A DNA stretch of 64,000 nucleotides, taken from Ancylonema sp. (taxonomy: Eukaryota). The position numbers were made by a program, and so were the translations under genes. Numbering within the stretch: the stretch's first letter is position 1; every line of letters starts with the position of its first letter. Location: the NCBI GenBank assembly GCA_050230475.1, contig JBFLGF010000098.1, forward strand, positions 1 to 64,000. Direction: 5' to 3'. The notes below the pieces were generated by a model. It saw only the letters and a program-made list of their open reading frames with translations, was not told the origin of the DNA and searched no databases. Shown here piece after piece: positions 8,404 through 56,000 of this stretch.

Positions 8404-9609
8404 ATGTCTGAAACTACCCTGAGCATGAAGTAAGGATCCGTCATGTTTGTATACATTCAATGTATAGCTTGTCCTGAAAGAGCGAGCTGAAAATGAAATT
8501 TCAGTAACAACCAGCTGAAAATGAGCGCGTATGAGGGTGCTCATTTTCAGCTGGTTGTTACTGAACAGTTTCATTTTCAGCTACAAAGATATTGAACATC
8601 AAAATGAAGATTAATCTGACAGGTAACAGGTAACACATGTTACCTGTCAGAATAATCTTCACACAGTCAGATTAATCTGTCAAATTAATCTTCTGATGTT
8701 CCATATCTTTGTAGCGATGCTCGTAAATACTTTATGTGACGAAAATATTCGGTGCCAATCTCCGGCGCTCATTTCTCCTATTATTATCTCGATTTTCTGA
8801 ATTCCTAGCCAGCTATGTCGACGTTTCAGTAAATTCCTACTATTTGCTCCTTTCTTACTCCGCCGACATGTGTTCAGAAGTATTTTCGTATTTTGCTACC
8901 GCATGTGTTCAGGAATATTCTCGGTGGCTTGGTCGGCACGGGTATTCTCGCCACCTTGGCGACTATCACGGTTGCTTCGGGAGTGGCCATGGCACTCGTC
9001 AGCCCCATCTTGCTGCTTCTGAGCCCGATCCTGGTGCCAGTCGCCATCGCAGCAAGTATGTCTTCTGGGAAGAATCATTTTTTTTTGTGTCGGGCTGTTT
9101 TTTGGGTGAACCAAATTTTTATGTTTTCGGTTATTTTCAGATGCTATAAAATAAGAGTGCAGATTTTCATGTGTTCTCCATCAGTTGTTCTTGCCACAAC
9201 GCATATTTTCGAGCTAAAAGTGGAGTGATAGCCGTGATGGAGATTTGACGACGTGTCCGTTCTGGGTTGATTTGATTTGGTACTGTCACCTTTACTTCCA
9301 GCCGCGCTCTTTTCCCTCATCGGGGGAACCCTCGGGAGCCTCTACCTCTGCTACTGGGTGTTCGAGTACATGAGGGGCGATGGACCCCCCGGCACCGGTA
9401 AAGTGAACAAGGTCATCCGTAAACTGGAGGAAGAGGCTCGCTATGTCTATCAGAAAGGCGAGGAGGGCGTACACGGAGTGATGGGATTGGCTGAGAAAGG
9501 TGTCAACGTGGCGGGAGAGACAACTACGGATGTGCTCGCATCCGTAGTCAGGAAGGCAACGGGCGTGGTTGGTGATACGACGTACGAAGCCACTCACCAG
9601 CCACGCTAA
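8404..9609 (+). CDS. Oleosin (lipid-droplet protein), 3 exons: 8404-8429, 8913-9055, 9302-9609
   Basis: GT-AG introns with compatible phases; long hydrophobic hairpin containing the canonical proline knot PX5SPX3P (PILLLLSPILVP), followed by WVFEYMRGDGPPG as in oleosins. Confidence 0.92.
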
Positions 9610-19676: not shown

Positions 19677-22600
19677 CTAGGTGGCCCCCTTCACTCCGCG
19701 CGGGAAAAACACTCCATTCGTCTTCCCCGCCCCGCCAAAAACGGTCGCCAACACCTTTGCAGGCGTCCGGGAATACGCCACCGCGTCGGATCCACTCGGC
19801 ACCAAATTATGAAGGTCGCCATCCTTCCCCCTCCCGAGGAAGGCGCGGAAGGCAGAGGCTGCGTCCACTAGGGTGTCCACCGTGGCTCCATAGGGGAAGA
19901 CGATCTCCTCCAGAGCAAGAGAGAGGAGGGTGCGGATGGCACCCGCGTGGTACGCTTCTGTGGCCATAATGCCAGAGGCAGTCTGCGGGAGAGAAGGAAG
20001 AGAAAGGTAAGGTACGGGAAGTGGTACAGGGAGGGAGGTGATATGTAACCTGATATATATGTAACCTATACATAATCTATATGTAACCTGAAATGTAACC
20101 TATATGTAACATATGTATGTAACCTATATGTAACATATATGTAACCCCGTTCTGGTGACGTCACCTCCTGTCCACCAAACTTGTGTCGTAAAAGTTGTGG
20201 CCTTGTTTGTTGGACCAGGTTCATTGCTCGCGACCATGGCTTAGTCTATTGCGAGACCAAAATAGGACGAGGAGGTATCTCATGCATGTCACAAATCGGG
20301 AGTCCAGTCCCCAGTCCTGTGCCTCAAAAGTGTACCCACTGCTGAAATGACCTGAGAGAGGTGTGATACCACCAGACAGATCCTGACAACATACAGTAAG
20401 GGGTCGAATACTTTTCAGAGCTTCTTCTGGTTCCCATTTAACAGTCAACAGTTCATGCCATCCATCCCATCTGTCGCTAACCGGAAGAACAAGTTTTGAA
20501 ACGAGTCCCAGAGCGTAGTGGTAGGCCGTGACACCGACGTCCTCAAAAAGGAAGGCTCCGAGGTAGAAGAGAAGGTCGTCTTCATATCTGTGGGCCAACC
20601 AGGAGGGGGAATCAGAAAAGAAGGAGGACACGGTGATCCTCTCCATCAACCACCAAATTCAACCTCTTTTCTTTTTCCTTCTTCCTTCCATGCTTTCATC
20701 CCGATGTAGCGATCCGAATCAACGATGTAAAAAACGATGAAAACCAACGCCGGCAATCAGCTGGAGGGAGCAGTGAGACAGGGACACGTGTGACTCACGG
20801 AGAGAAGGGCACGGGGAGGGAGGTGACATTCAGCGCCCCGAGAACGACTGCTTGAAAGGCAGGACCAATGTCCACGACCGGACACGAGAAAGCATGTACG
20901 CCCAGGGCGGCTCGGATGAGTACCACGTGCGCGATTTCGTCCGCGGCAATGTCTTGCGCGAGGAGAGACGCCTTGGCGCTGAGCAAAGCCTTCTTTCCTC
21001 CGATCGCTCGCGCACCTCGGCCGCCTTGCTTGCGGGTCAGGCCTTTGCCGTGGGCGGCCCAGGAGTAGAATTGCGCCTCCAGGCACTCTGGACACGGTGC
21101 GGGACGGTCACAGTGTTAAGGACCTCGTTATAGAGGACAGTTGGGGACGATTTGGGACGATTTAAAACGATTCGGGACGATTCGGGACGATTTTTTTGCG
21201 ACGTTTTGATGGTACATTTTTCGGATTGGGTGATTTTTGTAAGAGAAATTTACTTTGAGAAACATTCTGTGCCATTTTTTTGTTGTTTTCTACATCGGGG
21301 TTTCCTCCTGTATCGGAGTGACGTCACGGTGAGGGACGAGGTTGGGGGGGACTTGTGTAGATTTGATGGCGAGGAAAGAAACTGATTCAAATTCAAAGTG
21401 TTGGAGTGGGAGAGTGAGTTTCGTGAGTAGTGATTCATTTCGCCTGCTTCCGTTTCCTCACCAAGGTTGAGCGCAAACTGCAGAACGGCAATGTCGGTTT
21501 CGGTGAACACTGGCGGGGCAGCGTACTGCAGAACAGCAAACTCAGTGTCAGTGGATCCGAAATGGATACTCTGCAAACGAAGTGGGTGACAAACGACCCG
21601 AAAATCTGAGAGAGTGATTTTTTTTGTACGTGCCCTTTTCAGAACACCTGCTGGATTCGAATTTAGAACGCAAAAGGAGGAGGAACTCACAGCAGCACAG
21701 CTGGCGGGGGAGGCCTTGGGGCAGCCGCGCACGTTACAAATGCTCTGGGGAGCAACGGGGTCGGGGCCCAGACTGCATACCGAGGAATGGGGGTGGGGGG
21801 GGGGGTCAGGTAACAACATGTGGTACAGGAATCGCCAGCGACGAGTGCAACAAAAACGCGACCTCCACGTCATGGACCTCCGCAGCACAGTGCGATACTC
21901 ATTCTACGTTCGATGTTCTATGTTCGATGTTGAGGGGACAGCGCAGAGGTGTATGACGGGTGGACATGAGGAACTCACACAGCAGGCGCGGAGCATCTTC
22001 GCCCGAAGAGCCCAGTGAGGCCATTGGCCACGATGGTGACGTCAACTGCCGACACGCCGTACGCGGCGGCGGAGGCCCCCACTTGGGAGATGAAATACGT
22101 CGTCTGCGGGTTGTTGAGCTTCATGAACTTGTGCGTCTCGTACATGCTGGCGTCCCCGCCGTACGCGGGGAAGGTGGTGGATCACACGGCGGAGCAACCG
22201 AGGAGGGTGCCGAAGAGGTGGTAGAGGTGGGTGAGGAGCATTCACTGGTTGGAGGTGCACCCGGTGTCGGCATCGTTGGAAGGCTGGGAGGGGGAGGGAG
22301 GGGGGGTTCAGGTGAGGCGAATTCAGATCAGGGTGGTCGCGGGAAAATGCATAACGGCGGTTCCAAGATTGATCCGTAACGCTACCTAGAGAGAGTAATA
22401 TTTGCACCTTGTTCTTAGTGAGGGGAGCCGCTCCTCCATTGTCCAGGAAGTTAACATTACTGGGCTTGCCATCCTCATTGGTGGATTTTGCGGTTCCATC
22501 GAAGAACTGGAGAAGGCTAACTAGTTCGCCATTGACGGTCGCGTTCGCCAGGATACCCGGGACAACCAAGTCGGTGGGGGTTTTTGTATAATTTCCGATC

Positions 22601-27000: not shown

Positions 27001-27206
27001 CCTATGGCGATCCAAATTCTGTGGATGATGAGATCCCAGATGCTGTGGGAAATCCATCACCACAGCTTCCGAGTTCTCCTCTTCCTCAGAGTGCGGATCT
27101 TCCAAAACTTATCAGCGATCCTAGTAGAGACGATGAGGACGAAGATCACCTAGATGATGGTCCATAATGGTATCTAGATGATGCTACTCCTCTTAATCCG
27201 CTTGGC

Positions 27207-29434
27207 GTGACGGACGACTCTTCTGAAACTTCTATCGATGATCCAGAGTCTGACCCTCGGCATGTTCGTCGATCTGCAAGGGACAATAGAGGAGTGCATC
27301 CCAACAGATTTGCTGCTGCTTTTGTTGCCAACTTAGAGAGTGAGATAAAGACACCCACGACTGTGGAGGAGGCTCTTAACAGTCCACAACGGCCTCAGTG
27401 GCAAGCTGCAATGGTCGTTGAAATGGGAAGTCTACAAGAGAACCGGGTCTATCGACTTGTGCCTAGGCCGAGGGGGAAGAAAGTTGTGAAGTCAAAGTGG
27501 GTGTTCAAGATCAAATTCAATGTTGATGGTTATGTAGAAAAATACAAAGCAAGAATTGAGGCTAAGGGATTCAGTCAAGTAGAGGGAGTGGACTACGATC
27601 AAACCTTTTCTCCAAGTGTTCGATTTGAGAGTATTCGTCAACTTGTCGCCATGGGAGCTTCCAGGGGTCTACACATGCACCACAAGGATGTTACAACAAC
27701 TTTTCTCTATGCGCCCCTGGAAGAGGAGGTGTACATGGAAGCTCTTGACGGCACGTGTGGGCGTGGTGAAGCAGATTTAGTGTGGCTGCTACTCAGGTGC
27801 CTGTATGGCCTCAAGCAGGCGCCGAGAGGATGGAATCAGCACATCGACGACGTGCTAAAAGGCATGAAGTCTCATCGCCTGGCTTCAGATTTTGGCCTTT
27901 ATATTCTGGGAGAAGGGCCAGAAGCACTCTACTTGGCGCTATATGTGGATGACGTGTTTCTCCTATACATGAGGCTGGCGACTATTTTTGGGGTGAAAGG
28001 AGGGCTGGGAAAGCGCTATAACATGAAAGATCTGGGAGAAGCAAAGTTCTTGTTGGGGCTTGAGATTCGAAGGCAGCCTGATGGCAACGTGTATTTGGTG
28101 CAAGATAAATATTTCAGAGATCTGCTCACAATGTTTGGGATGCAAGACTGCGATTTTGCTGCTAATCCTCTTGAGCTGGGTGTCATTTTTTTTGCAAACT
28201 GTGAAACTGCTTCTGAATCTGCTAGAATAGAGGGTGTGGGATACAAGTATGCAATGGGCAGTTTGCTATATCTGACTTCTGGCACAAGACCCGATCTGGC
28301 AGCTGTGGTTAACTCCTTGTGTCGATACAATCAGCAGCCAGGGGACAAGCATTGGGAGGGGGCTAAGAGAGTTTTGCGCTGTCTAAAGGGAACTGTCGAT
28401 TTGGGGCTGATGTATAAGAAAGAGAGTGATTTGCTAGTCATGGGTTACTCATATGCTAGTCATGGTGATGACGTCGACACGAGGAAGGGGAAAATTGGCT
28501 ATGTCTTTCTTAGTGGAGGAGCTGTTGTGCGTTGGAAAAGTGGTATGCTGGAAACAGTCACACACTCAAACTGTGAAAAGGAATATTTGGCATTGAGTGC
28601 TGCTGGCAATGAAGCTATTCATTTGAGCCAGATGCAAAAAGAGTTGGGTATTGGTGGGGGGAGTGTGCCGTTGCTGGGGGATAATGAGAATTCTTTGAAA
28701 CTTGTTGAGAATCCTGTCTTACACAAAAGCTCCAAACACACCAAGATCAAGTATCATTCCATTCGAGAGAGGGTGTCCAAGAAAAAAAACCAATTTCCAG
28801 TTTGTAAAGAGTGAAGACCAGGTTGCTGATATGTTGACAAAACCGGTGTTTGTCAAGGTGTTGAAGAAGAATTGTGCTTTGGTGGGGTTGGTGTATGAAA
28901 AATAGTTTCGTGAGTTCTGTGAGTTTTTGTTGCATTTTGTTTGTAAAATCGATATCGTTTTCGTTATCGTTTTTGGAGGGGGAATACAAAAGTACTTAGG
29001 GAGGGGGTGTTAGTTTTTAGGGAATGTGAACTTTTGTCGTTATATCGATTTTAGCAATACCGGGAATTTAGCTTTAGTTTTGTCGTTATTCAGCAAATGC
29101 ACGCTGCAGGCCGGCTGCAGGCCGATGTCCTTGTTTCAATGATTACTTGGCCATCTGGCACAAGTGTCGATAAGAACTAGTTGATGAATTGGCAGATGCT
29201 TAGATATGATTGGCAGTTGACTAAGTAGTTTCGATATCTGTAGATCCTTTGACGAGGCAGCAATCGACTGTAATAGGTCTGGGCTTGCATGCTGAATTCG
29301 TTAATCAATACTTTCTATTTCAAACTTGCACTTTTGTTGTGTCGACGTTTGTAATGACGTGATCCGTTTGATTCAAAGAGATTAAGAAGAAGTGAACTTT
29401 ATTCTTGCATCGATGGCAGAAGAAAGTTCTCACA
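27207..29434 (+). mobile_element. 5'-truncated Ty1/Copia retrotransposon: RT-RNase H, PPT and 3' LTR (29008-29434)
   Basis: SKWVFKIK, YKARIEAKGFSQVEGVDY, LYGLKQAPRGW, LYVDDV, TRPDLA, KHTKIKYHSIRE, DQVADMLTKP (frameshift in the A-run near 28790); PPT AGGGAGGGGG at 28998-29007 followed by TGTTAG; LTR homologous to 39459-39870. Confidence 0.93.
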
Positions 29435-30111
29435 CATCAGACAACCATTCTTTTGAGTCACTCATCATTTATGTCGAGCGCCAACCCTCCCATAAAGGCG
29501 AATCCGACAAAGCACAAACAAGTCTAGGGGGAAATGCTTCACTTTGCCCAAAGTGGTCAGGGTCGGCGGTAAGTTATAGGCACAATCCACTTTGTGACTT
29601 TGACATGTGTTATACGGCTTTTGGCAAAAACAGACCTGCGATGATGCACCAAACCGGAGCTCGTGAATAGTAGGGCTTGTTATTTGCGCCTCGTATAATA
29701 TTATTGAATCACCCTACGTTGTGGCGTACAAACTTTCTATTTGTCAAATCTGATATTCAGAATTGACTATTGACTCTAACTTGTATCAATAAGGTTGCCA
29801 CCATGACATTTAAGAGCCAACAAGGAGCAAGGCTAGCAGGATGACATTCATGAATGTACTTGGCTTTGTAATGAGAGTTGGGTACAAACGCTTCACCAAC
29901 AACAAATTCGTTAAAAAAAACGAATGTCCACGTCACAAGTTGCAATCTCGACACTCGATGACACTTCTACTTTGCTTTCAAAAGAATATGACACAAAACT
30001 AAAGCCAACAAACCTTGCAAATTTATGTACACGACAAAAAACAAAAAAAAACACTTTTCCACGATTTTATCTACACCCCAACAACACCGCGCAAAAACCG
30101 CTCCCCCACAC

Positions 30112-32842
30112 TTATATCGCACCATCACCCTTCCCTTCATCCACATCATCCGCTGAACTAAGTGCTAGCGGACGAATTTCTTGGACGTCACATACACCAG
30201 TTGACACATAATGCGGCCTTGCATGGCCTTCCCTATCACCTTTCTTTGACCGAGCCAAAGCGATGTCTCTATCTCTCGGATACGTCCAATAGAGGAACGT
30301 GTATGTCAAACAACAGATAGTGAATGGAATAGCTACGGTGACGAGGAGGCCTTGCGACAACGCCCTCGCGTTTGTTCTATCTTCCATAGCGCGCGAATCT
30401 CCACCCGCTTTTTGCCCAGTCTCGGCGACGGGGATGTAGCCAAAGAATCTCTCTGTCAAAATGCCGACAATTGGAGGAGCGAAAGCGGCCACACTCATCT
30501 CAAGCATCCGATCCAGGGCATAGATGCTTGTGCGGAGGTTCTCGGGGACTATTTCCGCAAGAATGGGGCTGCCATTTTCAGAAAGTACACACGGAGATAG
30601 GGGGATTTGAAAGTGATCCGCTGACAGCACCTCAAAAAAATAAATTGAAAAAAAACGACTCTAATACGTCACTTGCTGCTGGCATCTTCAAGACATCTAG
30701 GATGAAAAAAACCAGTCTACTTTCTTAAAGAGACCGGAATGTGGATAGGTGGGCGTGGATGTTTTAGCAAAGCATTGGCTTTACCACCAGGCATGCTCAC
30801 AGACACGAAACACACTACGAGAGCAGCCAAGGTCAGTCAGCAAGTAACAAGACTTGGCAATCCCGCGAACCAACCCTTGCTTCCTTCTACCCACACCAGC
30901 TGTGCACTCGTCCTCCCCCACAACTTCAAATCGTCAGTGCCAGGTGGCGGACAGAGATAGGTGCACCAACCAAAGGGCAGGCAAGGACCTCACTTGTTAG
31001 TACTCGATCCATTCCACGACACCAGGAACCCAAGGCCGGCAAGAAGCGCCGACTACAGCGCCGCAAAGTCCGGATCCGGCGGGGTCCACCACAGGAGCAG
31101 GAGGGACAGCGGCACAGCCACCCCCAAGCTGAACTGCGCACACACGATGCGGCCGCTGTCCGGGAAGAGGGTGGCCATCTTGTCCCCCACCCACCCCCCA
31201 ACCAGCGACCCCAGGCAGCACCCAACCGCGAAGCTTCCCAGAAGGAAGGCGGTGGTGGCGTGGGAGAAGCCCGTGAGCTCCAGCCACATGGCGGAGAAGG
31301 ACATGGCCGCCCACGGGAATGAGCCCACCGCGCCTTGGGCTACGAGGAGGAGGAAGGTGGGGACGGATACTACAGTTCGGACAGCAGACCAGAGTTTGTG
31401 GAAATCCGCCCTCCATTCGACTTGGTCCAGGCGGGATTCACGCTCGGATCTGGTGAGGGGAAGCAGGAGGGCAGACTGAAAACCAGGGATCCAGGGCGTA
31501 GTATATGCCAATTGAAAAGTGTTTGATTTGAGGTGGAAGGAAGAGGGCTAGTGGGTGACTCAATTTTCGTTCCGGGTTGAACTGGAATATTGTAGCAGGC
31601 AGTCGAATACCAGACCCAGTACTGAAAGGCAATGCAAAGCACGAGAAGGAGGTCCAAATTTGTCCTCGTGAAAATCAACCTTGTAAGAAAGACACCCGTT
31701 TCTCAAGGTAGTATACCATGACAATCACCTGCCCACGACCCTCAATGAGCAATCACCTGCCCTGCTGATGACGCCTCCCGCAGCATCTACGTGTAGGTAG
31801 TCGTTGCTCGAGCGATCAACGGCATAGGATTGGCCCTCGTCATCCCCGCCATACAATCCCTGGTCGCCGATTCCTCAACTGCCGAAGCTCGAGGCACAGC
31901 GTTTGGATGGCTGGCACTTACCAGCAACTTGGGAGCGATTGCAGGCGGCTGCTTCGGAGTTCTTCTAGGGGGCTCAGAGCCCTTTGGTATGACAGGCTGG
32001 AGGGTAGCCTTTCACACTGTGGCCTTCATCACCTACGACACCGCCTTCTGTGTGTGGAAGTATGGGGAGGAGCCGCAGTCCAGTGAAAGGTGCGACGCCA
32101 AAAGAGGACTGTAACTTTTTGGACGAGGGTTGAGCGTTCAGAGTCCATCAGAGTCTCTCAGATGGATTTAAACACAGTCGTGGATTTCTGTTCTGAGCCC
32201 GTTTGTGCTCATTGATCAGACTCGTCTGTAACAGCATACGGCCTTCATTGAGTCCGGATGCGGCTTGGGCCGTTTGAATGCAGGATGTCTACATGTACAC
32301 GTACTAGATGTACGTCCCAGCGGGAACGAGACTATAGTGCCCCCTATTTTAAAGCATACATGTCTACTACATTGGATTGATTCGTACAAGTAAAATGTGG
32401 AATGATGGTTTTGTCATTAGTTATATGCACGAATTTCAACATGCTGCCACTGATAATTTGAGAAAATGATTTGACGTGCCAACAACAATTACGACTAATC
32501 TATCACCTCACGTCTGTTTTTCTTTACCTCGGCATATACTGAGGCCACAGCCACAGCTGAAGTAGCAAGCCCCCAGACCAATGCTCCAGCGCAAATAACG
32601 TTCAACCGGTTAAATCGCAGTGAAAGGTACGCAGCCAGTGGGTACGAAAGTGCCTGTGCGGCTGCCCTAACGAACGTAAGCGTGCCAAGCCCTGAAGGAG
32701 TTGTCCTGAATTCAGTTCCGACCTCTTTATATACAGACGGCAAAAGTGACTCATCTGCCTTCTCCACTATGGAGGCAAGGTTTATGATCACAAAAGAGCG
32801 CAAAACGGTGTCATGCCACCAGGCAAAAATACGAAGTGCCAT
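30112..32842 (-). pseudogene. Spinster-like MFS transporter; exons 32842-32528 (-), 31797-32089 (+, inverted), 31449-30994 (-, in-frame TAG at 31055-31053), 30568-30112 (-)
   Basis: Plant MFS motifs INLASIVEKADESLLPSVYKEVG, ARAINGIGLALVIPAIQSLVAD, QGAVGSFPW, SWNGSSTNNPILAEIVP, IYALDR, YWTYPRDR; splice phases 0/2/2 all compatible. Confidence 0.85.
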
Positions 32843-33607
32843 ATATAGCAACACGCATTTGCTGCGAGTAAATTGTGGAGACGGACGATCAGAATGTCGC
32901 GCACCCGGTGAATTGCAAACAGTTGGCAACTAGATCTTAGAAGCAGCAGTACAATATCTAAAGTTACAAAGTATATTTTTCACAAAACACTACGTGATTT
33001 GGTATGTGCTTGACGTGCCAAATTCACCGCGCTACTTCATAACTAAAATATCATAAAATTGTTCACTTCCCGGGTGTCCCGTCTTCTTGGACAGCTCGCC
33101 TCTCATGACTCGGTAGTGTGTAAGTTCTTAAACGGTGTGAAGGCACGGTACGCCTGGCTGCATGAAAAGGAATCTGACACCTCCTGCGTTTCACATGGCC
33201 CGCTTCTCAGGGCTCGGGGCTTGAAGCCCGGTGCCCTGCCTTCTGTCCTGTACGAATCATCTTGTGGCCACGTGCCACGTGGTGCCCATGGCCATCTGTC
33301 GCCCAGAAAAATTGCGCGGAAATAATGGTGTATGTTTTTTGCCATATTTGTTCTGCCAGTCTTTGGCTCTTTTTGCCGCCTGCATACTCCCTCGATTTTT
33401 CTACCAGGCAAGCATCAGCTTCCCCCATGAACCCTGACAGGATTCTACAGCGTAGAAAGTATCGTTGCCTGACTTTGGACTAGTGAGAGCAGCCGAGCGT
33501 GTAATTGAGTGCGCAGCCAAGTCACTCGCACTTGTCAGCGCTCCCCTCGAAGACGATCGTCAAAGGACACTAGAGGTCTCTGACAGCTCGGAATTCAGCC
33601 GAACGCG

Positions 33608-36600
33608 ATGAGTGGAGGAGGCAGTCAGCCTCAGTTCCGGTACACGCAGCCTCCTTCCAAGGTTCTTCACGTGCGGAATCTGCCATGGGAATGCACAGAA
33701 GAGGAGCTCATAGAGCTTTGCAAGCCCTTCGGAAAGATTCTCAACACGAAAATGAACGTTGGTGCCAATCACAATCAGGCGTTTGTCGAATTCGTAAGTG
33801 CTTCTTCTACCGCCCTTAGTCTGTTTTTTTCGAGTCTATGGTTTCGAATTTTCAGGTGCGTTACTGTACTTTGATATTGTCACCCGCCGTTATGTATCGG
33901 TGAGCTCCACTTTAACTCCACGTTGTGTGGCACCCGATCCGCAGGCTGATATCAATCAAGCCATCCAAATGGTTTCATTCTATGCGTCGTCTTCGGAACC
34001 AGCGCAAGTGCGGGGCAAAGCTGTTTATCTGCAGTATTCCACTCGACAGGAAATCGTGACGACTAAGCAAAGTGGAGATGTTGCTAGTAATGTGCTCCTG
34101 GTTACCATAGAAGGAGTTGAGGCTGGGGATGTGAGCATCGACGTTCTGCATCTGGTGAGTTCCGCACCGACACGTTATCACGGTTTGGAAGTTCTCGTCA
34201 GCAGTGCTTTATTTGCACAGTCCGTGTCGTTTTGGGTCTGACGGGGCTGAAGTCATGCTGAGCAGTCAACCCCGTCGTCCGGGTTCCAGGGTTCAGCTAG
34301 TGTCCGACTTAGGTATGCGTCTCGGATTCGCATCTCCGTTCTGGACCTGCTTTGCCGCCCTCCCACAGTGACTGTTTGGTTCCTTGATGGAAGTTGCTCC
34401 TCGGTGACCAGGTTCTGTTGCCGACCTCATTTCGGCACGCATCAGGACTGACCTCGAGGCGCACGCTTGTTCTGTTTGTCCACTCACCCCTAGCCTGCCT
34501 TTCCACCCCTCGCTCATCACGTGCCCTTTGCTCTCCCCTACATTCCACCCGCCCTTTGCTCTCCCCTCAATCGCACCTACCTTTCCCCTCCCCCGCTGTC
34601 CGTGTACACTCTACGTATGGAACGGCTTAGAAGGCAGTCGACAGGGTGATAAAGCCACCGAGTTTTGCACAGCATACACGATGCTGAGGGTATTGTCGTT
34701 GTTGGTTCGCACTAGTGGCCCAGATACCCTCATGGTGTCGTTCACTTACTTCCTTTAATGCACCACTGGGGAAGTGATGGTCGTCCGCAGGGTTCTAAGT
34801 TTCAGATGACCCTATCAGGGTGTCTTATCTTTGCACCGTCTGTCATCACAGCTCATTAGACATGTCTTCTCTGGACACTATTGCTTCTGTTCAATTGAAG
34901 AGAGTATGTTGCTCTTGTTTGCCACCGAAAACCGGGTAGAGTTTCATAAAGTTTGATAGAGTGGTAGTGTTTCTCGTAGGGGTCTTGTAGTCGCCACCAA
35001 GTACGAGGGACACACAAAGTCCCTCGTGTCAATAGAGTGATCTGTGATGGAAATGGACAGCTTGGAGTGCCGCCTTGAGTTTCTAAAGTCCTTGTCCTGC
35101 TCCCGTTTCTCGCTGCTGTTAAAATCGATAGTTCCTCGAGATTATTGGAACATTATCGTATTGGTTGGACTTTGCAGCTCGTGGAACACGTCGGTTGCTC
35201 GATCGGTTGGTTGTTTATCGTGTGGTTGTTGGTTGGATTTTTCGTAGGTTCTCATTCCCCTCCATTTCTGTGTACTTTGAGAACAACATTGGATGCAGGG
35301 TGAAACGTTAGCGGAGGTAGATGACGTCGAAACAACCTCAAATCCCTTCTGAAATAATTATTTTTAAGTTTTCGTCGTCTCTCCCTTCCTTTCTTCCTCC
35401 AGGTGTTCTCAGCATTCGGGTTCGTCCACAAAATCGCAACTTTCGAGAAAAGTGCTGGCTTCCAGGTACGTTCCCCTCATTACTGCGCTTCTTCCCACCC
35501 CCTAGACCTTCACCTGCATACATAAAGTAAGGGCACTAGTATGACTAGTCTTTGACATTGACACATAGCGTTTGTCTTTGTGCTTCTCTGTGTGTACGTT
35601 TGTGTTTCCAGGCTCTTGTTCAATTTGGAGATCCCGACACGGCTTCCCAAGCCAAGGGTGCCCTAGAGGGACGAAGCATACCAAAGTAAGGGAAGGGACG
35701 TGGGCTCTTTTGTGACACACCAACCGTGTCAGCGGTCTTGGAAGTTGTAAAAGAGAGATGCAGGAGGGGGATGTCCCAAGAGAACAGTGATCGACACTCA
35801 TCGATCCTTCTTGTCGTACTGTGTGACTTGATGTGTTTGTGACAAATGCGGTCGTGAGATAATGCTATCCACACAGGAATAGCATCCAGTCAACTGCAAC
35901 AGCCCCCTCCCTTGGATACTGTCAAACCCCTCTACAAGCACAATATTCGTCATCTTTTCGCGTCTTTCCAGAGTCGAGGGTCGAGTCTACAGAAAACTGC
36001 ACTATAGAATTGTAGAATTCCGTTTGCCAAATCTGTGGTGCCTTTGAAGTGGCTGCGCTTTTCCACAGAGTCTTTTCTTTTTTTATTGTTCACCAAAGTG
36101 CGTACACAGAGCTTTGACTGTCGTTTCTTCAATCCCCCTCCGTGTCTCAACGGCGCCTTGCGTCAGGATTCATGGACCCGTAGCGGAGACACTAGCAGCA
36201 GAATGGTCACGGAGACTGCACAGGAAGGTGGCCCTACTGTAGTCTGACGTGGCTTTGCCCCGTTGCTCTGTTGCTCTACGTCTCTTCTTCTCAGGTACCT
36301 CCTCCCGGAACACGTCACCTCCTGCAGTCTGCGCATCTCCTTCTCTGCGCACAACGACCTCAACGTCAAGTTCCAAAGCCACAGGAGCAGGTGGGGAACA
36401 AGTCTCCTTCTGTCTTCTTTTGCTATGGGGAAGCGTAGGGCTGCGTCAAAAACCCTACGCTGATAGAGAGAATTACAGGACGGATGAACAGTCAGCATCC
36501 CTGTGGGCGCGCTGTTGGTGGGGAGTTTTCTGCCACCTACACAGAGGGTGTGCATTTACAGAGGGTGTCCTTTACAGGGTTTATGCCTTGAGTCCACAAA

Positions 36601-38452
36601 CTATGGTGCCTGTACGGAGGGTGCCTGTAGAGATATAATTTTTATCTGACTCCCCCCTGTGTGATACTGCAGAGACTACACCAACCCTTACCTTCCTGTG
36701 GCGCCATCAGCAACAGATTCTGGGACTCCGGTAGGGATGCCTCCCCAGTAACCCCTGCTGCTGAAGAAAGGACGCGCAGTTGTATCGGAAGGGAGTCATG
36801 TACCAGATAGTTTTTCTCAGGCCTCGTTTTGCTTGACTTCTGAGATGAAGTGGTACAATTAAGTTTCGAAGGTCTTCTTTTGACGCTCTGGAGGATTTAT
36901 TTCCAACTTTGCAATATTGGATGGTATGTTGGACCCTTTTCTTTGTGTATCAGAGCATGGTGGTGGGAGCGGATGGTAAGCGGAGGGAGCCCGAGAGCAA
37001 CGTTCTTCTGGTGTCCATTGAGAACATGCAGTACGCCGTCACCATCGAAGTCATACACACGGTGAGAGGAGAAGGGAGGGGGGGGGAGGGAAAAACACAA
37101 AGGGAGCTGAGTGGGGAGGGAAACAGTGGGAGCTGGGAGGTTTTTGTGCCAATCGGGTATCGTCTTCGGGGCCTAGAGCAAAGGGCGGATATAAAGTCAA
37201 AGACAGCTGGCGTAGCTCCTAAGTGGCTGTGTGTTTCACCATGACAGGTGTTCACCGCCTTTGGCACTGTGGAGAAGATTGCCATATTTGAAAAGACTGC
37301 TGGGTTCCAGGCCCTGGTACAATATCCAGGTGGGGGTTCTATCAACAAAGAATCTCATAGAGAGAAATGAGTGTTTGTATGTATGCGTGTATGAATGCGT
37401 GCCTGAATGTATGTATGCATGTATGTACGTATGTATGCATGTATGCATGCACGTATATTGGGTATATGTGTATGCGTCTTTATGTATGTACGTATGTACA
37501 CATGCATGCATATATGTATGTATCGACACAAATATGTAAGAACACATCTTTTCTATAGGAGGATACATACGTTTGTATCCTCCTCACGTACTACTCAATT
37601 TTATGCACGTATTCTCAGCCCTGCCCTGGCTATCCTCGTCTGAACTTTGCTCCTTTTCTTCCATTTCCTTTCCCAGACATTCCCACTGCCGTCCGTGCCA
37701 AGGAAGCCCTGGAGGGCCACTGTGTGTATGACGGAGGGTTCTGCAAACTGCGACTGTCCTACTCGAGACACACAGACCTGAACGTGAAAGTAAGCAAATG
37801 GAACACGGGGAAAAAAAAAACAAAAACAAACAAACAAACAAACAAACGGAAGATCATTTTTACAAAAAACACCCCACTTGCGGCCCCTCACCCTCCCCCC
37901 CCCCTGCCTGCCGCCTGTCAGGCCAACAACGACCGCAGCATGGACTACACCAACCCCACCCTGCCCTCTACCGCTGCCAACCCCGGACCCATCGTCTCCG
38001 GTTCCCCCTTTGCAACCCCTGAACCCCAACCCCTGACCAGCTGGGACTACGAGCAGGCACACGCCAATGCTGCAAAGACCACCCAACCCCCAGCCGCAGG
38101 CGCCCCCCCTCCCCCCGGGCCCCCCCAGGGATCTGCACCCCCCCCCCCCCCCTACATGGGCGGCTCTCTGCCCGGCCCCCCTCCCCGTCACGGCCCTCCC
38201 CCACCTGCACAAGGTGGCCCCCCGGTTGGCCCCCCCCTGGTAGGTGGGCCGCCTCCTCCCGGACCGCTTGGCAGCGCCCCGCCTGGACCAAGAGGACCCC
38301 CACCGCCAGGGTATCCCCTGGGCCCACCTCCGTCGCGCTACCCGGGCCCACCCCATCCCTATACAAGAGGGCCCCCACCCCCCGCGGGTGGCCCTCCTAG
38401 TGGCCCACCAGGACCCCCGCCGCTGCGCGGCCCAGCTTATGGGGGCTATTAG
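33608..38452 (+). CDS. PTB: Polypyrimidine tract-binding protein (plant PTB1/2 type, 3 RRMs + Pro-rich tail); exons 33608-33793, 33945-34154, 35403-35465, 35612-35685, 36295-36390, 36673-36730, 36954-37061, 37248-37329, 37677-37789, 37922-38452
   Basis: QFRYTQPPSKVLHVRNLPWECTEEELIELCKPFG, NHNQAFVEF, VFSAFGFVHKIATFEK, SAHNDLNVKFQSHRSRDYTNPYLP, GGFCKLRLSYSRHTDLNVK; all introns GT-AG and in phase. Confidence 0.95.
37372..37525. repeat. Degenerate (TGTA/TGCA)n microsatellite in a PTB intron
   Basis: Directly visible. Confidence 0.85.
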
Positions 38453-44301: not shown

Positions 44302-45115
44302 ATGGCCGCCGTTGCCATGTCCGCTGCCGTTGCCCCCGCCACCTTCGCTGCTGCTGCCTCCACCAAGAGCAGCTCCCAGCAGACCGTCTCTGCCTTCGTT
44401 GGCCTCAAGAGCAGCGTGTCCACCAGCAGCTCCTTCTCCTCCAAAACCGTCTCCAATGGCTCCAGGATCAGCTGCATGAAGGTGATTAAAATGTCTGGAT
44501 ACAGCACGCTTAAGCGCAGACTATCTATTCGTTAAAGATTCAGCTCCATGTTTTCAAGATCTAGACGTGTAGTTCTCAAAATCAGTCCAACAAGGGTTGA
44601 GAGATCTGCTCCTTCATAGAAATTTATAGCATGGTTGATCCGGGTAAAGGTTGGATACTTCCATCAACGTCAACGTTTTCTCAATGCACTGTCTCTCATA
44701 TTTCCTGACATCATTCTGGTATGTTATTGCTCAGGTGTGGACCCCTGTGAACAACCCCAGATTCGAGACCCTATCCTACCTCCCCCCCCTGTCCGTGGAT
44801 GACATCATTAAGCAGATCGACTACATGCTGAGCAAGGGATGGTTCCCCTGCATCGAGTTCGACATGTGTGGCGTTGTCAGCCGCGAGTACAATGACGGTC
44901 CCGGCTACTATGATGGCCGATACTGGACAATGTGGAAGCTTCCCATGTTCGGATGTACCGACGGTGCTCAGGTTGTGAGGGAAGTTGCCGAGTGCAAGGC
45001 TTCCTACCCGGAGGCCTACATCCGTGTCCTGGGTTTCGACAACATCAAGCAGGTGCAAGCTGCGTCCTTCATCGTCCACAAGCCCCGCCCCTCGTACTCC
45101 AAGTCCTATTTCTAG
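44302..45115 (+). CDS. rbcS: Rubisco small subunit precursor; exons 44302-44481, 44735-45115
   Basis: Ser/Ala-rich transit peptide ending [10 protein letters not shown], then [49 protein letters not shown]; intron at the conserved position just after the start of the mature protein. Confidence 0.98.
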
Positions 45116-48049: not shown

Positions 48050-50587
48050 TGTGAGTGTTACCATCATCCATGATGCCTTCTTTACACCAATAGCTTCAAT
48101 CTTCAGAATCAAACTTATTCACCACATGCCATACAAGAGAGTCGAGTCTTGATTGCAATGAGTCCGATTGAATTTTATGGCGGCCGCAACTTGGCTTAAG
48201 TAAACATGCCTTGTTGGATGTATCGTTCTAACGAATATTTGTTAAAAGATCTAGCAAGAAGGCATGTTGCCACAAAATCGATATAACGAATATTCTCAAT
48301 ACAACAAAGTTTCTAGCCAATTCTCACACCCCCTCCCTAGAAACTTTCGCACACACCCTCCAAAAATCATGGCATAGATATCGATTATTCACATCAAAGT
48401 TCCCCCCCCCACCAAAGAACTACCCCCTCCCAATCGAAAGCTGCCCCCTCCTAAACAGAAGGGTCCCCCCACCCCTTCCAAGCATAATTCCTAAGGAGCA
48501 GCAACAAGCCCAATCATGTCATAGTTTGTCTGATGGATGTTAACGGGGACTGCCTTAGTGAGCATATCAGTGCTAAAACTCACTCTTAACAAACTGCAAC
48601 TTGATCAATCTTTTGGCTACCCTCTCCCGAATAGAGTGCCACTTCAACTCAATATGCTTGGATTGACGATGAAATACTGGGTTCTCTCCCCCTCCCCCCC
48701 CTTCCCATGCGTGTGGCCTCATCATTTCCATGACTCTTGTCCGAGTATCACCAGACAGACAGCTCCCCCCCACACTGGTACAACAGGAGCATCATAATTC
48801 CTTTGCGACCACCCGCGCCTTGAACTTCTTTACCTCCCTAGTAGCATTCTTCTTCACCCTGAAGATCCACTTGGATTTGACTACCTTCACCCCAGGAGGG
48901 CGAGCCACTACCCTAAAGACCTTGTTCTCCTCCAGGCTGGTAGAAGTCATGGCAGCCTGCCAGACGTCACTTTCTGGAGATCTGATAGCGGCAAGTACAA
49001 TATGGTACTTGTCGACGAGTACGTTAGGAAGTCTTGGGCGGAAATTATGCGCTCCAAGGACGAGGCTGATGTGCGACTCTAACAGTGGATCGCGATGTGA
49101 GAAACTCAGGCCGGCAATACCCTCAACAATCTGCGGTCTGACGACGGAGGGAAGTTTATGGACGGGAGCTTTCAGCTCTGGCTCCGACATCGGGGAACAA
49201 ATGACGAGCTTACTCCCCCGCACAATCCTCAGACCAACGGCATCACCGAGCGCATAAACAGAACGCTCCAAGACCGCGCTCGGTCCATGCTAGCCGGCAT
49301 GAAACTCCCTTCTGGCCTCTGGGGCGCCAAAGACTTCGCCTCCTACCTCCGCAATCGCGGGTCTCCCGAAGACCCCGGAGGAGATTCAGTGGCCTGTTTC
49401 GCCGCGACCAGCAGGGGGAGCTGGCCATGGCGGCCAGGGTACTGCGGGAGCTGGAGCTAGAGGCCCTGGCGAGGCAAGTGGAGGTGGGGGTGCTAAAGAT
49501 GGGGGTGCTGGAGGTGGGGGTTGGAGTTCTGGCGGGGCTGGAGGTTGGCAGGCAGGGGCAGACGCAACTGGGGTGGGAGGAGCTGAAGCTGCAGCCACAG
49601 GCCCTGGTGCAGCGGGGGCAACTGGGGATGGGGGTGGGGGCGGGGAAGAGGCAGTTCCTGACGCTGTGGGGACTCCCTTACCTCAGCGTCAGGACCTTCC
49701 TCCCCGTCAGAACAACGATCTACCTGACCTCGTCAGCAACTCGAGCGGGGATAGCTACATGGACGAGCAGCTCGAGGACGGCCCCGAACGGCATCCCAAC
49801 GATGTAGACGCTGAGAATCCAGCCGGAGCTGGTCCCCCAAGTGGTGGTGGGGCTGGGGCTGGGGCTGGGTTAAGGGCAACCGCTGGAGTTGGGGTTGGGG
49901 CTGCGGGTGGAGCACCCTCGCCCCTCCCCCACCTACCCGCCGATCTGGCAGGGTGAACTCTGGCATTCCCCCTCTCAGATTCGTGGCAGGGTACGCTGCA
50001 CACGTGGCGCAGGAGGTCAGCACGCCAAAATCTGTCGATTTCCAGACAACGCGCGATGTTGTTGCTCACGAGCGACATTATGAGCATGACCGCGCGCTTG
50101 CATTTCTTCCGGTACAATTTCAAGTCCTCCGTGTACTCTTCCATCTCATCATAATTTGCTCGATTAGGCAATATCTCCTCGGGTTCCAACTCAGTCCCCT
50201 CACACACTTCTAAACAATCCTCATTGTCTAAAATTGCGCATGTTTTCGACCGCCATGCCTGAAACGGCACGCGGTCGCCATCGAAGATCGTATATCTTGC
50301 TCTGATACCACTGTGAGAGTTACCATCATCCATGATGCCTTCTTTACACCAATAGCTTCAATCTTCAAAATCAAACTTATTCACCACATGCCATACAAGA
50401 GAGTCGAGTCTTGATTGCAAAGAGTCCGATTGAATATTATGGCGGTCGCAACTTGGCCTAAGTGAACATGCCTTGTCGGATGTATCGTTCTAACGAATAC
50501 TTGCTAAAAGATCTAGCAAGAAATGTTGCCTCAAAATCGATACAACGAATATTCTCAATACAACAAAGTTTATAGCCAATTCTCACA
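48050..50587 (-). mobile_element. Internally deleted, rearranged Copia element with both LTRs (5' LTR 50587-50312, 3' LTR 48328-48050)
   Basis: Near-identical LTRs of about 278 bp with TG...CA; tRNA-iMet PBS TGGTATCAGAGC (minus, ending at 50310); PPT AGGGAGGGGG (minus, 48338-48329); TSD GTGCG/ATGCG; gag, RT-start and RNase H-end fragments on minus; integrase fragment on plus. Confidence 0.92.
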
Positions 50588-53002: not shown

Positions 53003-56000
53003 TCATTGGTAAAGTTTTCCCAGCACGATTCCCCCAAACACAATGGCCCCATACCACTGGTTGGAATTGAACCTGCAAAGACCGCGAAAGGAGGGTAGTG
53101 GACCATCAGGCCGTGCATCCAAGCAGACACGACAAACAACACACCTTCCTAACGCAACTTCGGCAACATATCTCCCGATCAAAACAGAGCAAGATCCACT
53201 ACCTCCCCCACACAGCACCGTGCCTCCTGCCTCCCTCCCCCCTTACTTCCTCCTGCAATCGTCCCTGTCGTCGTAATCCACACCTGCTACTTGCCACGCC
53301 AGCTGGCCACCACTGGCAGACACAGCAACATAAAACGGCCAACCTGTCCCAACCACACACCACCCCCCCGAATTCAGGTTCAGGTTCAGGTTCAGTCCCC
53401 ACCATATGAGGATGCTCATACCACCTCCTCAGACCCTCTGCTCCCTGACCCCATTGGCAATCCTCCTGCCACCCCCTTCTCTCACCCAGCCCAACTGCGT
53501 TGCCAGCTGTCGCCAGCCCCACGAGGGTCGCTGCACTGAACCCTGTGAGCCAAAGGGGGGAGTTGGGTCCGAACAGCAGCGCAGTGGAACGGACGCCCAC
53601 TTGCACGTCATCGACCTTGTCCTGGAAAAACGGAAACATACAAAAAGATGAGCCACCTGTCACTCCTGCTTGTTTTATGTGGTCCAAACTTAGAAGTGTG
53701 CCCTGCACATACATTTGATCCTCTCTATAGACACCCCTCAGGTTTGTCTTGAATGTCGTGCCTTTTTGGGGGGTGTGCCTTTACAGAGGGCGAGATCTAC
53801 AAGCCTTATTATTCATGTTTGCCAAATAAGGTGCCATTATTATATAGCGTGCGCCTATACAGAGGGTCGACCGAAGACACATGTATGTACATATGCGGCA
53901 CCCAACAAAAAAAAAATTGCGAGCAGTCCCATCCGCCCCTTCCCATTCCTTACCTGGTGCGCGTATATGGTGTCGTACACCAGCGTCCAGGACACCCCTG
54001 CCAGGTAGAGAGGCAGGACGACTGGCAGGTTCAGAGAGCCATGCACGGCCGCCCAGCCAAGAAGAGCCCCCCAGTTGAAGGAGAGCCCAAGATAAGCCTG
54101 AGGCTGGGAGGAGGTGGAGGGGGAACCGAACATTATTTTTAGACCTCCTGTTTCACCTTCTTCTTCTTTTTCAAAGATATTGGACTGGGAAGAGAGAATT
54201 TTTTTTTGGAAAAAAAAACTTGGAAAAAAAAACTTGTAAACAAAAACTTGGAAAAAAAAACTTGGAAAAAAAAACTTGGACTAAAACGATGATCTGACGG
54301 TGGGAAGAGGGGATGGCGTGTGATTATTTCCCAGGGAGTGTAAATATCACCCTGAACGCCCCTTTAAAAACCGGGGGGGGGAAACCAGAATTACCCAGTA
54401 CGTGATTCTCTTCATTAGTGGATAGGTGAACACGAGCAGAAGGGAAGAGGCCCCCAGGATTTGACTGCAGAAAGAAGCCACACCCATTCGTGACCAACTC
54501 TACGAAAGATCTGAAAATAAGGTTACGTATATGGGTCTTAGGTTTTATGTTGGTGTACAAGTATACATAGGTTTTTTAGTTTTTACATAGATTTTCTAGG
54601 TTAGGTTAAGGTCAAGGTTAGAGGAGATACTGTTCATCTCTCCTCTAGTTTTGTCATTTTGTACAAAAAGAGCATTTGACCACAGCGAAATGGAACACTT
54701 GTGTATGTTACTGCCACGCCACATCAGCGTCCAAGCCACGTGGCAAAGTACTGATTTTGGTGATGGAAAGGGAGATGAATGGGAGATGTGAAAACGTCCA
54801 GTATCATCCTCATTTTCGACTACCTAGTTAAACTACTATCCCCTTACCAATGCTCCAAATCCCGAAACCACCATGATCGGTACTCACTATTCCGATCAGG
54901 TCCCCCCCCCACAGAGACACACACACCTGAACGCGTTCAGCTGCAGCAGAATTCCTAGTCCCAACATGAGCTGCGCCCCCAGAAACACCACCGCTGCCCT
55001 GCTGCTAACTGTGCCAGCTGCCAGGGGTCGCACCCTGGTGCGAGCCACCTGGCAAGAGGGCAGGCAGGACACCTGTCGGTCACGGAGCAGCTTCACCAAC
55101 CTAGTACAAGTTCATGCAAACAAGAAGAAAAAAAGCAAGAAGCAGAAAGCGAGAAGCGTTTTTGGCAGTGTGTGGAGGGGAATCCAGGCCCAAGATCTGA
55201 ACAGATCCACAGCGAAATCCACCCCCCTGGACCCTGGGCCCTGGCAAAGTCCCGTCCACAGCAGCAGCCTCTGTTCTTTCGTTATATCGAATGCCACGGA
55301 GAGGCACACGTACCTTTGCATCGATTTTTTGGTCCAGAAGGTCGTTCACGGTGCAGCCAGCGCCCCGTAGGAGGACAGCTCCGCCCCCGAACAGGGCCAA
55401 CAGGTGGAGGTCAGGGAGGCTGCCAGGTGGCGCTGCCAGGGCGATGGACCTGGAGTCAAGCGCGGAGAGAGGTGGAGCATCAGTGGTGGGGAGAGAAGAC
55501 GAGGGAGGACCAACGGGATTATGCCAGGTGGCGGTGGGAGGGCAGATGAGGGTGCCATGAGGGGAGGGTACAGTGGATTTGGTAACTCAGGGGATGAGAA
55601 CATAGGCAGAGGGCAGAAAGCTGGAAGGATGAAGTTTGGGAGGGGTAGATGGTGAATTGACGAGGTGTGGCAGGCGACATACGATGCCAGGCAGTGACGT
55701 GGCATTGACAAGGGAGTGGGCGGCGCTGATGGTCACTCGGAGAAGGTGAAGAGAACGGGACGGAATGTGGCCCGAATGTGGAGAAGATTGAAAAAAAACA
55801 ATAATGGGACCCGGATGACATTCAGGGGCGACACAGTGGCAGTTTCTCGGGAAGGAAATTCTAATGATTTCTCTCGTTCTGCCTCTCTCGTTCTCCCGGT
55901 TGTTCCGTTTTTCAAGAGAGAAGAAAGGACCCCAACGATTCAACTCACCAGAAGCATGGCCATGCTAACAGCCATGTCCCAATGGGCTTGTCTAGACGCG

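What the first reader, a model, noticed from the sequence alone, without database searches (positions are those of the whole stretch)
31797..32089. MFS transporter exon 2 lies on the opposite strand with both splice sites intact
Seen: exons 1, 3 and 4 are on minus, but the missing middle segment (VVVARAINGIGLALVIPAIQSLVAD...GWRVAFH...EPQSSE) is on plus between them, bounded by TGTAG| and |GTGCGA. Its phases (0 in, 2 out) exactly fit exon 1 and exon 3. The breakpoints lie in the introns (about 31480-31780 and 32100-32500), and I see no flanking inverted repeat. Inference: most likely a micro-inversion that disabled the gene, consistent with the TAG at 31055-31053. Alternatives are an assembly error or mod(mdg4)-style trans-splicing from an antisense transcript.
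Basis: seen in the sequence. Interest (0 to 1): 0.72.

Follow-up and report, generated by a model that had tools for sequence, protein, structure and literature searches.

The report
Flipped exon in algal transporter gene
In what is likely a conjugating green alga, the second exon of a membrane-transporter gene lies backwards in the DNA, which likely knocked the gene out recently; a second flip sits in a dead transposon nearby, so this is likely an ordinary mutation rather than exotic splicing.

Summary
The layout is real. Exon 2 (31797-32089, +) has both splice sites and the right phases, while exons 1, 3 and 4 lie on minus. Contigs of two runs of one sample span both junctions without a break. 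A homolog about 82% alike has exons 1 and 2 collinear with the same donor, so the flip is derived.

The TAG is TAT (Tyr) in the read contigs, one of 11 of 13 window-only T>G changes, so it is not evidence of decay. There is a flanking inverted repeat: 10 nt, perfect, at 31742-51/32206-15, weak on its own.

A second inversion of about 1 kb, in a dead copia element at 48956-49952, has a perfect 9-nt inverted repeat at breakpoints placed by its coding frames, so this mutation type occurs here in unselected DNA.

The exons are otherwise intact (dN/dS about 0.07), so any death is very recent. Skipping exon 2 would give a stop after three codons, as in human SLCO1B3. Double trans-splicing is not excluded, because no RNA of this copy was seen, but I put it at about 7%.

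The parts
32528..32842 (-). MFS exon 1 (ATG at 32842; donor GTAAAG, phase 0)
31797..32089 (+). MFS exon 2, inverted; acceptor GTGTAG, donor GTGCGA, phase 0 in and 2 out
   Evidence: same donor position in the collinear homolog
31763..31770 (+). likely branch point of intron 1 (TGCTGATG), carried with the flipped exon
   Evidence: same distance from the AG as TGCTAAC in the homolog's loose end; function inferred
31742..31751 (+). left arm of perfect 10-nt inverted repeat, candidate breakpoint
   Evidence: chance 9-18% on its own
32206..32215 (-). right arm of the 10-nt inverted repeat, candidate breakpoint
31722..31762 (+). 13-nt direct repeat (two copies 28 nt apart) overlapping the left arm; possible junction scar
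   Evidence: 19 such clusters in the window
30994..31449 (-). MFS exon 3 (phase 2 in and out)
31053..31055 (-). TAG in the window, TAT in the contigs of X1 and X2; likely a window error
30110..30568 (-). MFS exon 4 with stop codon
48956..49952 (+). comparison case: integrase and linker segment of a minus-strand copia element lying on +, bounded by a perfect 9-nt inverted repeat

Best explanation
Exon 2 of this MFS transporter gene lies inverted in the DNA, likely flipped recently as one piece of about 470 bases between two 10-nt inverted repeats in the flanking introns, and the gene is likely a fresh null because its transcript would skip the exon and stop three codons into exon 3. Shown: the inverted layout in the window and in read contigs, the collinear state in a close homolog, intact exons, and the stop in the skipped product in silico. 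Inferred: the exact breakpoints, the mechanism (template switch or microhomology-mediated repair at the short repeats), the skipping itself, the young age, and that other copies make the loss tolerable.
For: X1 record 1 (4275 nt) spans 29500-33682 and X2 record 9 spans 30655-33682 with no gap or joint; no other contig covers the introns at 80% likeness or more. A 10-nt repeat is shorter than the 31-letter words of these contigs, so an assembler is unlikely to flip it (inference). Homolog B has exon 1 and exon 2 on one strand, 82% alike in exon 2, with the same donor. 37 of 38 distant loci show exon 2 on the same strand as at least one other exon; 1 held exon 2 only; none was opposite. A second inversion in unselected DNA 17 kb away has a perfect 9-nt inverted repeat exactly where the coding frames switch strand. 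The exon 1 to exon 3 product reads I-R-A-stop. No pairing between intron halves beyond chance. In human SLCO1B3 and PRKN an exon inverted between intronic breakpoints is skipped (passages of PMC7005217; PMC8421701).
Against: No decay to show death: no frameshift, no stop in the read contigs, 17 synonymous to 4 non-synonymous changes on this copy's side of exon 2 (dN/dS about 0.07), and 13 of 138 conserved columns changed against 11 of 145 in Mesotaenium. If dead, it died within roughly the last 0.012-0.027 substitutions per site (indel rates assumed). The collinear homolog B looks more relaxed than the inverted copy (8 non-synonymous to 9 synonymous, including Gly11Arg at an invariant site; Fisher p = 0.087). 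The breakpoints are not fixed by an unflipped close allele, and the 10-nt repeat alone is near chance. X1 and X2 are one sample and may be related to the window's source.
Confidence: 0.8

Rival explanations
1. The gene is alive: exon 2 is transcribed from the plus strand and stitched between exons 1 and 3 by two spliceosomal trans-splicing steps.
For: All four exons, six splice sites, the phases and a likely branch point are intact once the TAG is read as in X1 and X2. dN/dS is about 0.07 on this copy's side. The inverted copy is better conserved than collinear homolog B. Giardia dynein heavy chain beta has two trans-spliced introns in one gene (passages of PMC5224939).
Against: Longest shared word between the intron halves is 7 nt, and the duplex energies are matched by 42 and 72 of 200 shuffles. 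mod(mdg4) uses terminal exons with their own promoters. A neutral inversion of the same type lies in the same window. A recent inversion explains intact exons equally well. Known single-exon inversions are skipped. The listings of two paper searches showed no nuclear case in these algae (15 of 216 listed; 12 of 13).
Confidence: 0.07
2. The flip is a laboratory or assembly artefact, such as an amplification chimera formed at the short repeats and shared by all data from one DNA preparation.
For: All supporting runs are one sample. The window carries a technical-looking T>G error spectrum (11 of 13). Whole-genome amplification makes inversion chimeras at microhomologies (recalled; the search gave no paper that I read). 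The copia inversion was not checked against reads.
Against: Both junctions are spanned in two runs, one at contig depth 127, with no unflipped near-identical contig. The window and the contigs differ at 11 of 4183 places yet share the inversion, so they are not one consensus. A clean two-junction flip that replaces the normal form throughout is unlike a sporadic chimera (inference).
Confidence: 0.07
3. The segment is a reversible DNA switch that is flipped back in some cells, turning the transporter on and off.
For: Intact exons under purifying selection and a perfect inverted repeat around the exon.
Against: No contig of the reversed form in X1, X2 or X4, though contigs drop rare variants. 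The arms are only 10 nt and differ in sequence from the copia arms, so there is no shared target site. No recombinase was seen among the 150 of 442 frames scanned.
Confidence: 0.04

Closest known systems
Single-exon intragenic inversions in human SLCO1B3 exon 4 (PMC7005217) and PRKN exon 5 (PMC8421701); passages read
   Same: A whole internal exon with its splice sites reversed between intronic breakpoints, copy-neutral. In SLCO1B3, also a transporter, the exon is lost from the mRNA and a premature stop is predicted.
   Different: Here an alga, apparently the only form of this copy in the sample. No LINE-1 at the junction. No RNA test yet.
Microinversions flanked by short inverted repeats (human-chimpanzee set, PMC8755829; yeast spacer inversions, PMC8604942); abstracts read
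   Same: Perfect short inverted repeat at the likely ends; template switching or microhomology-mediated repair proposed.
   Different: About 470 nt here (about 1 kb in the copia case) against 17-33 nt in the human set; breakpoints here are inferred.
Polymerase-theta templated insertions or filler DNA in Arabidopsis (PMC10923293; passages)
   Same: The left junction has a short duplication whose spacer matches, inverted, the other junction.
   Different: No pre-break allele to prove an insertion; 3 of 18 other short repeats in the window also find a 10-nt template within 900 nt.
Drosophila mod(mdg4) trans-splicing (PMC13490949; passages)
   Same: Coding exons on the strand opposite to the common exons.
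   Different: There, many alternative terminal exons with their own promoters and one trans step; here one internal exon that needs two.
Giardia split spliceosomal introns, dynein heavy chain beta (PMC5224939, PMC10711314; passages)
   Same: A middle gene piece joined at both ends in trans is what the novel reading would need.
   Different: Giardia halves show extended base pairing and a cleavage motif; no pairing beyond chance here.
Streptophyte MFS_1 transporters, best full-length hit Mesotaenium ME000036S06256 (60% over exon 2)
   Same: Same family; intron 1 and intron 3 fall at matching places in the land-plant-like loci.
   Different: Intron 2 is absent in most of the distant loci. Substrate unknown. 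Kinship to Arabidopsis At1g78130/UNE2 is recalled and was not tested.

Membership tests
Single-exon intragenic inversion (SLCO1B3/PRKN type) | intact internal exon reversed, breakpoints in both flanking introns | tested here: met
   collinear homolog gives the ancestral state
Single-exon intragenic inversion (SLCO1B3/PRKN type) | present in genomic reads, copy-neutral | tested here: met
   contigs of X1 and X2 span both junctions, no second copy of the segment; one sample only
Single-exon intragenic inversion (SLCO1B3/PRKN type) | exon missing from the mRNA | not testable with these tools
   no RNA contig of this copy; the skip product stops after 3 codons in silico
Inverted-repeat-flanked microinversion | perfect or near-perfect inverted repeat at the breakpoints | tested here: inconclusive
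   10-nt pair present but 9-18% by chance; met for the copia case, where coding frames place the breakpoints
Inverted-repeat-flanked microinversion | length of tens of bases (17-33 nt in PMC8755829) | tested here: not met
   474 nt if the arms are the ends
mod(mdg4)-type trans-splicing | common 5' exons joined to alternative terminal 3' exons | tested here: not met
   one internal exon; exons 3 and 4 stay on the strand of exon 1
mod(mdg4)-type trans-splicing | independent promoter and outron for the opposite-strand exon | not testable with these tools
   no raw RNA reads; the promoter scan is bacterial and uninformative
mod(mdg4)-type trans-splicing | chimeric junction reads | not testable with these tools
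   no RNA contig of this copy in X4
Giardia split introns | extended base pairing between intron halves | tested here: not met
   7 nt; energies within shuffles. Overlapping sense and antisense RNAs would pair trivially if the plus RNA were long enough.
Giardia split introns | 3' cleavage motif after the 5' half | not tested
   motif is Giardia-specific
Major facilitator superfamily (PF07690) | MFS_1 profile match in order along the protein | tested here: met
   exon 2 49.5 bits (cut-off 33.4); exons 1 and 3 match adjoining profile parts at 31.9 and 27 bits; exon 4 no Pfam hit but 48% to Mesotaenium

The most novel reading that the evidence does not exclude
A living nuclear gene of a streptophyte alga whose internal exon is transcribed from the opposite strand and inserted by two spliceosomal trans-splicing steps, rescuing a genomic inversion. 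The stop codon is absent from the reads, every splice signal is intact, and the inverted copy is better conserved than its collinear homolog.
Probability: 0.07. Interest if true: 0.9.

Novelty: new member of a known kind. Interest (0 to 1): 0.3.

Why it matters
As a recent knock-out it is a clean natural example of a known, easily missed mutation: exon-level gene callers and copy-number tests see nothing wrong. Two short-repeat inversions in 64 kb hint that this genome makes them often, which a genome-wide count could test. The locus is also a cheap test of whether a plant-lineage spliceosome can rescue an inverted exon in trans: one RT-PCR from exon 1 to exon 3 decides it. The one-way T>G errors in the window are a warning that stop codons called from this assembly need checking against reads.

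Tried and rejected
No whole genome is held, so paralogs in the same genome could not be counted. No RNA holder was listed. X4 turned out to hold spliced sequence and an own-type piece of the neighbouring PTB gene but no own-type MFS contig; this lack of cover is no evidence either way. X3 (labelled glacier metagenome) holds only 235 identical letters of exon 1 and its flank, nothing on orientation. Protein searches found no full-length relative above 60% (45 hits among 1092 candidates), one exon-level relative at 85% and one at 58% for exon 3. A 24-letter junction pattern found nothing in prokaryotic genomes. Base skew across the introns did not place the breakpoints. Frame-keeping cryptic exons on minus: 6 candidates, all with weak pyrimidine tracts, none restoring the lost helices. 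A scrambled-gene system was rejected: oleosin (2 pieces) and UbiA (3 pieces) are strand-consistent among the 150 of 442 frames scanned, and the PTB exons seen lie on +. No long terminal repeat was found around the copia fragment at 27168-28814 that could drive plus-strand RNA. The TAG as evidence of decay was rejected. Solved-structure search gave only distant NorA. Earlier-finding look-ups by place, words and sequence were empty. No supplements were read.

Full report
Observation. The six-frame read-out confirms the layout. Exon 1 (32842-32528), exon 3 (31449-30994) and exon 4 (30568-30110) are on minus. Exon 2 (31797-32089, 293 nt) is on plus, between GTGTAG| and |GTGCGA. Joined in a script, the exons give 506 codons with one internal stop, the TAG at codon 335. 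Exons 1-3 match adjoining parts of Pfam MFS_1; exon 4 has no Pfam hit. The best full-length relative is from Mesotaenium (60% over exon 2). A tree of the joined protein and 31 of the 45 hits (those of 450-700 residues) groups it with Mesotaenium and Closterium (100/99), on a long branch. The host is therefore likely a zygnematophyte alga.

Is it in the DNA? Contigs of runs X1 and X2, both of one sample, span the stretch with no gap or joint: X1 record 1 covers 29500-33682 and X2 record 9 covers 30655-33682. No other contig lies on the two introns at 80% likeness or more. These runs may be related to the window's source, and contigs drop rare variants. Still, window and contigs differ at 11 of 4183 places while sharing the inversion, so they are not one consensus.

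The stop codon. Of 13 differences between the window and own-type contigs in 29500-34476, 11 are T in the reads and G in the window on one strand or the other (p about 2e-7). One is 31053, where the contigs give TAT. The column holds His, Tyr or Arg in 31 of 31 homologs, with Tyr in Mesotaenium and in P0055. At 34438 three contigs agree against the window. The TAG is therefore likely an error of the window and says nothing about decay.

Ancestral state. Homolog B (X1 record 3) has exons 1 and 2 on one strand. It shows 49 differences in 273 letters of exon 2, the same donor position and a branch-point-like motif at the same distance from the acceptor. Among 38 distant metagenome loci, 37 have exon 2 on the same strand as at least one other exon, one holds exon 2 only, and none is opposite. 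The flip is thus derived. A third copy, C, has a depth like the window's own type, but its exon 2 orientation is not shown, and whether B or C lie in the same genome cannot be told.

Breakpoints. It would define a 474-nt piece and ancestral introns of about 367 and 418 nt. Alone it is weak: 189 of 2000 shuffles and 116 of 629 same-geometry places give as much. A 13-nt direct repeat overlaps the left arm. No shuffle of 2000 gives one, but the window holds 19 such clusters, and 3 of the other 18 also find a 10-nt template within 900 nt. The coincidence resembles the templated fillers described for Arabidopsis (passages of PMC10923293), and I count it as suggestive only.

A control in the same window. 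A decayed copia element at 48050-50587 lies on minus: terminal repeats 94% alike, primer-binding site, gag-like frame, start of the reverse transcriptase. Its integrase and linker read on plus. The plus frame ends ...YPPIWQ at the right arm and the minus frame resumes VWQAAM... at the left arm; the window's other copia has PQWQAAM at this place. A perfect 9-nt inverted repeat (48956-48964, 49944-49952) sits exactly there. Short-repeat inversions of 0.5-1 kb thus occur in unselected DNA of this genome, which makes the 10-nt arms more credible. This second case was not checked against reads.

Selection and age. One search showed 40 of 61 difference rows. In 31823-32027, changes shared by B and C against the window are 17 synonymous and 4 non-synonymous (dS about 0.39, dN/dS about 0.07; this includes the stem of B and C). 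B-only changes are 9 and 8 after a codon-level recount (the single-site count gave 8 and 9), dN/dS about 0.31, Fisher p = 0.087. The joined protein departs from 13 of 138 conserved columns, Mesotaenium from 11 of 145. With no stop, frameshift or lost splice site, a dead gene can be at most about 0.012-0.027 substitutions per site old, for assumed indel rates. This tells against an old pseudogene, but it fits a recent null and a living gene alike. Two odd residues (Asp186, Leu358) may be early relaxation.

How it most likely works. A minus-strand pre-mRNA has a phase-0 donor and next a phase-2 acceptor, so splicing them gives I-R-A-stop. Six frame-keeping cryptic exons exist on paper, all with weak acceptors. 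In human SLCO1B3 and PRKN, an exon inverted between intronic breakpoints is left out of the mRNA (passages). Short inverted repeats at inversion ends are described for ape microinversions and yeast (abstracts). I therefore read this as a recent inversion that likely made a null allele of a dispensable copy (0.80). The skipping, the age and the redundancy are inferred.

Rivals. Double trans-splicing (0.07) would need a plus-strand RNA and two trans steps. mod(mdg4) uses terminal exons with their own promoters (passages). Giardia has a gene with two trans-spliced introns, marked by extended pairing (passages); here the intron halves share 7 nt, and their duplex energies are matched by 42 and 72 of 200 shuffles. 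The listings of two searches showed no nuclear case in these algae (15 of 216 papers listed; 12 of 13); I read titles and abstract starts only. The reading stays open because the gene is intact and no RNA of this copy was seen. Run X4 holds spliced sequence and an own-type PTB piece but no own-type MFS contig, which is no evidence either way. An amplification artefact (0.07) and a reversible switch (0.04) are argued in their own sections.

Verdict. A real inverted exon and a new member of a known kind. Unchecked notes of this scan describe like cases in other genomes. Interest 0.3; 0.9 if RNA shows both trans joints.

Noticed in passing
window 48050-50587: Decayed Ty1/copia element on minus (terminal repeats 48050-48328 and 50312-50587, 94% alike; primer-binding site beside the right one). 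Its integrase and linker segment, 48956-49952, lies on plus between a perfect 9-nt inverted repeat; most of the reverse transcriptase is deleted. Not checked against reads.
   Followed up: partly
window 29500-34476: The window differs from the same organism's contigs at 13 places; 11 are T in the reads and G in the window on one strand or the other (binomial p about 2e-7 against 1 in 6). One makes the TAG. Likely a technical error of the window's assembly.
   Followed up: partly
window 33794-33954, run X4: A contig of run X4, listed as DNA?, lacks exactly the first PTB intron while X1 and X2 keep it, so X4 holds cDNA.
   Followed up: partly
window 31823-32027, homolog B: The collinear homolog carries Gly11Arg at an invariant site, Leu56Pro in a likely helix and His73Tyr, where P0050 has Gly, Ile and His; it may be decaying too. 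Its X4 contig runs into intron 2 and begins with 18 letters that fit neither its intron end nor the window's exon 1 end; 10 of them match window 32225-32234 on minus.
   Followed up: partly
window 31803-32035 and 30436-30574, copy C: A third copy has contig depth close to the window's own type in both runs and may be a paralog in the same genome; the orientation of its exon 2 is not shown.
   Followed up: no
window 32037-32039 and 30564-30562: Asp at codon 186, in a column that holds Ile, Val, Leu, Gly or Ala in 31 homologs, and Leu at codon 358 where 29 of 31 have Phe: possible first signs of relaxed selection.
   Followed up: partly
window 33608-38452: A PTB-like RRM gene (name recalled from the sequence; Pfam RRM_1 hit) runs away from the MFS gene on +, about 770 nt from its start codon; the sample holds several related versions of it.
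   Followed up: no
window 8833-9606, 20798-21115, 27168-28811, 44648-45112, 53858-55586: Oleosin, ferritin-like, copia reverse transcriptase, small RuBisCO subunit and UbiA-family pieces (Pfam).
   Followed up: no
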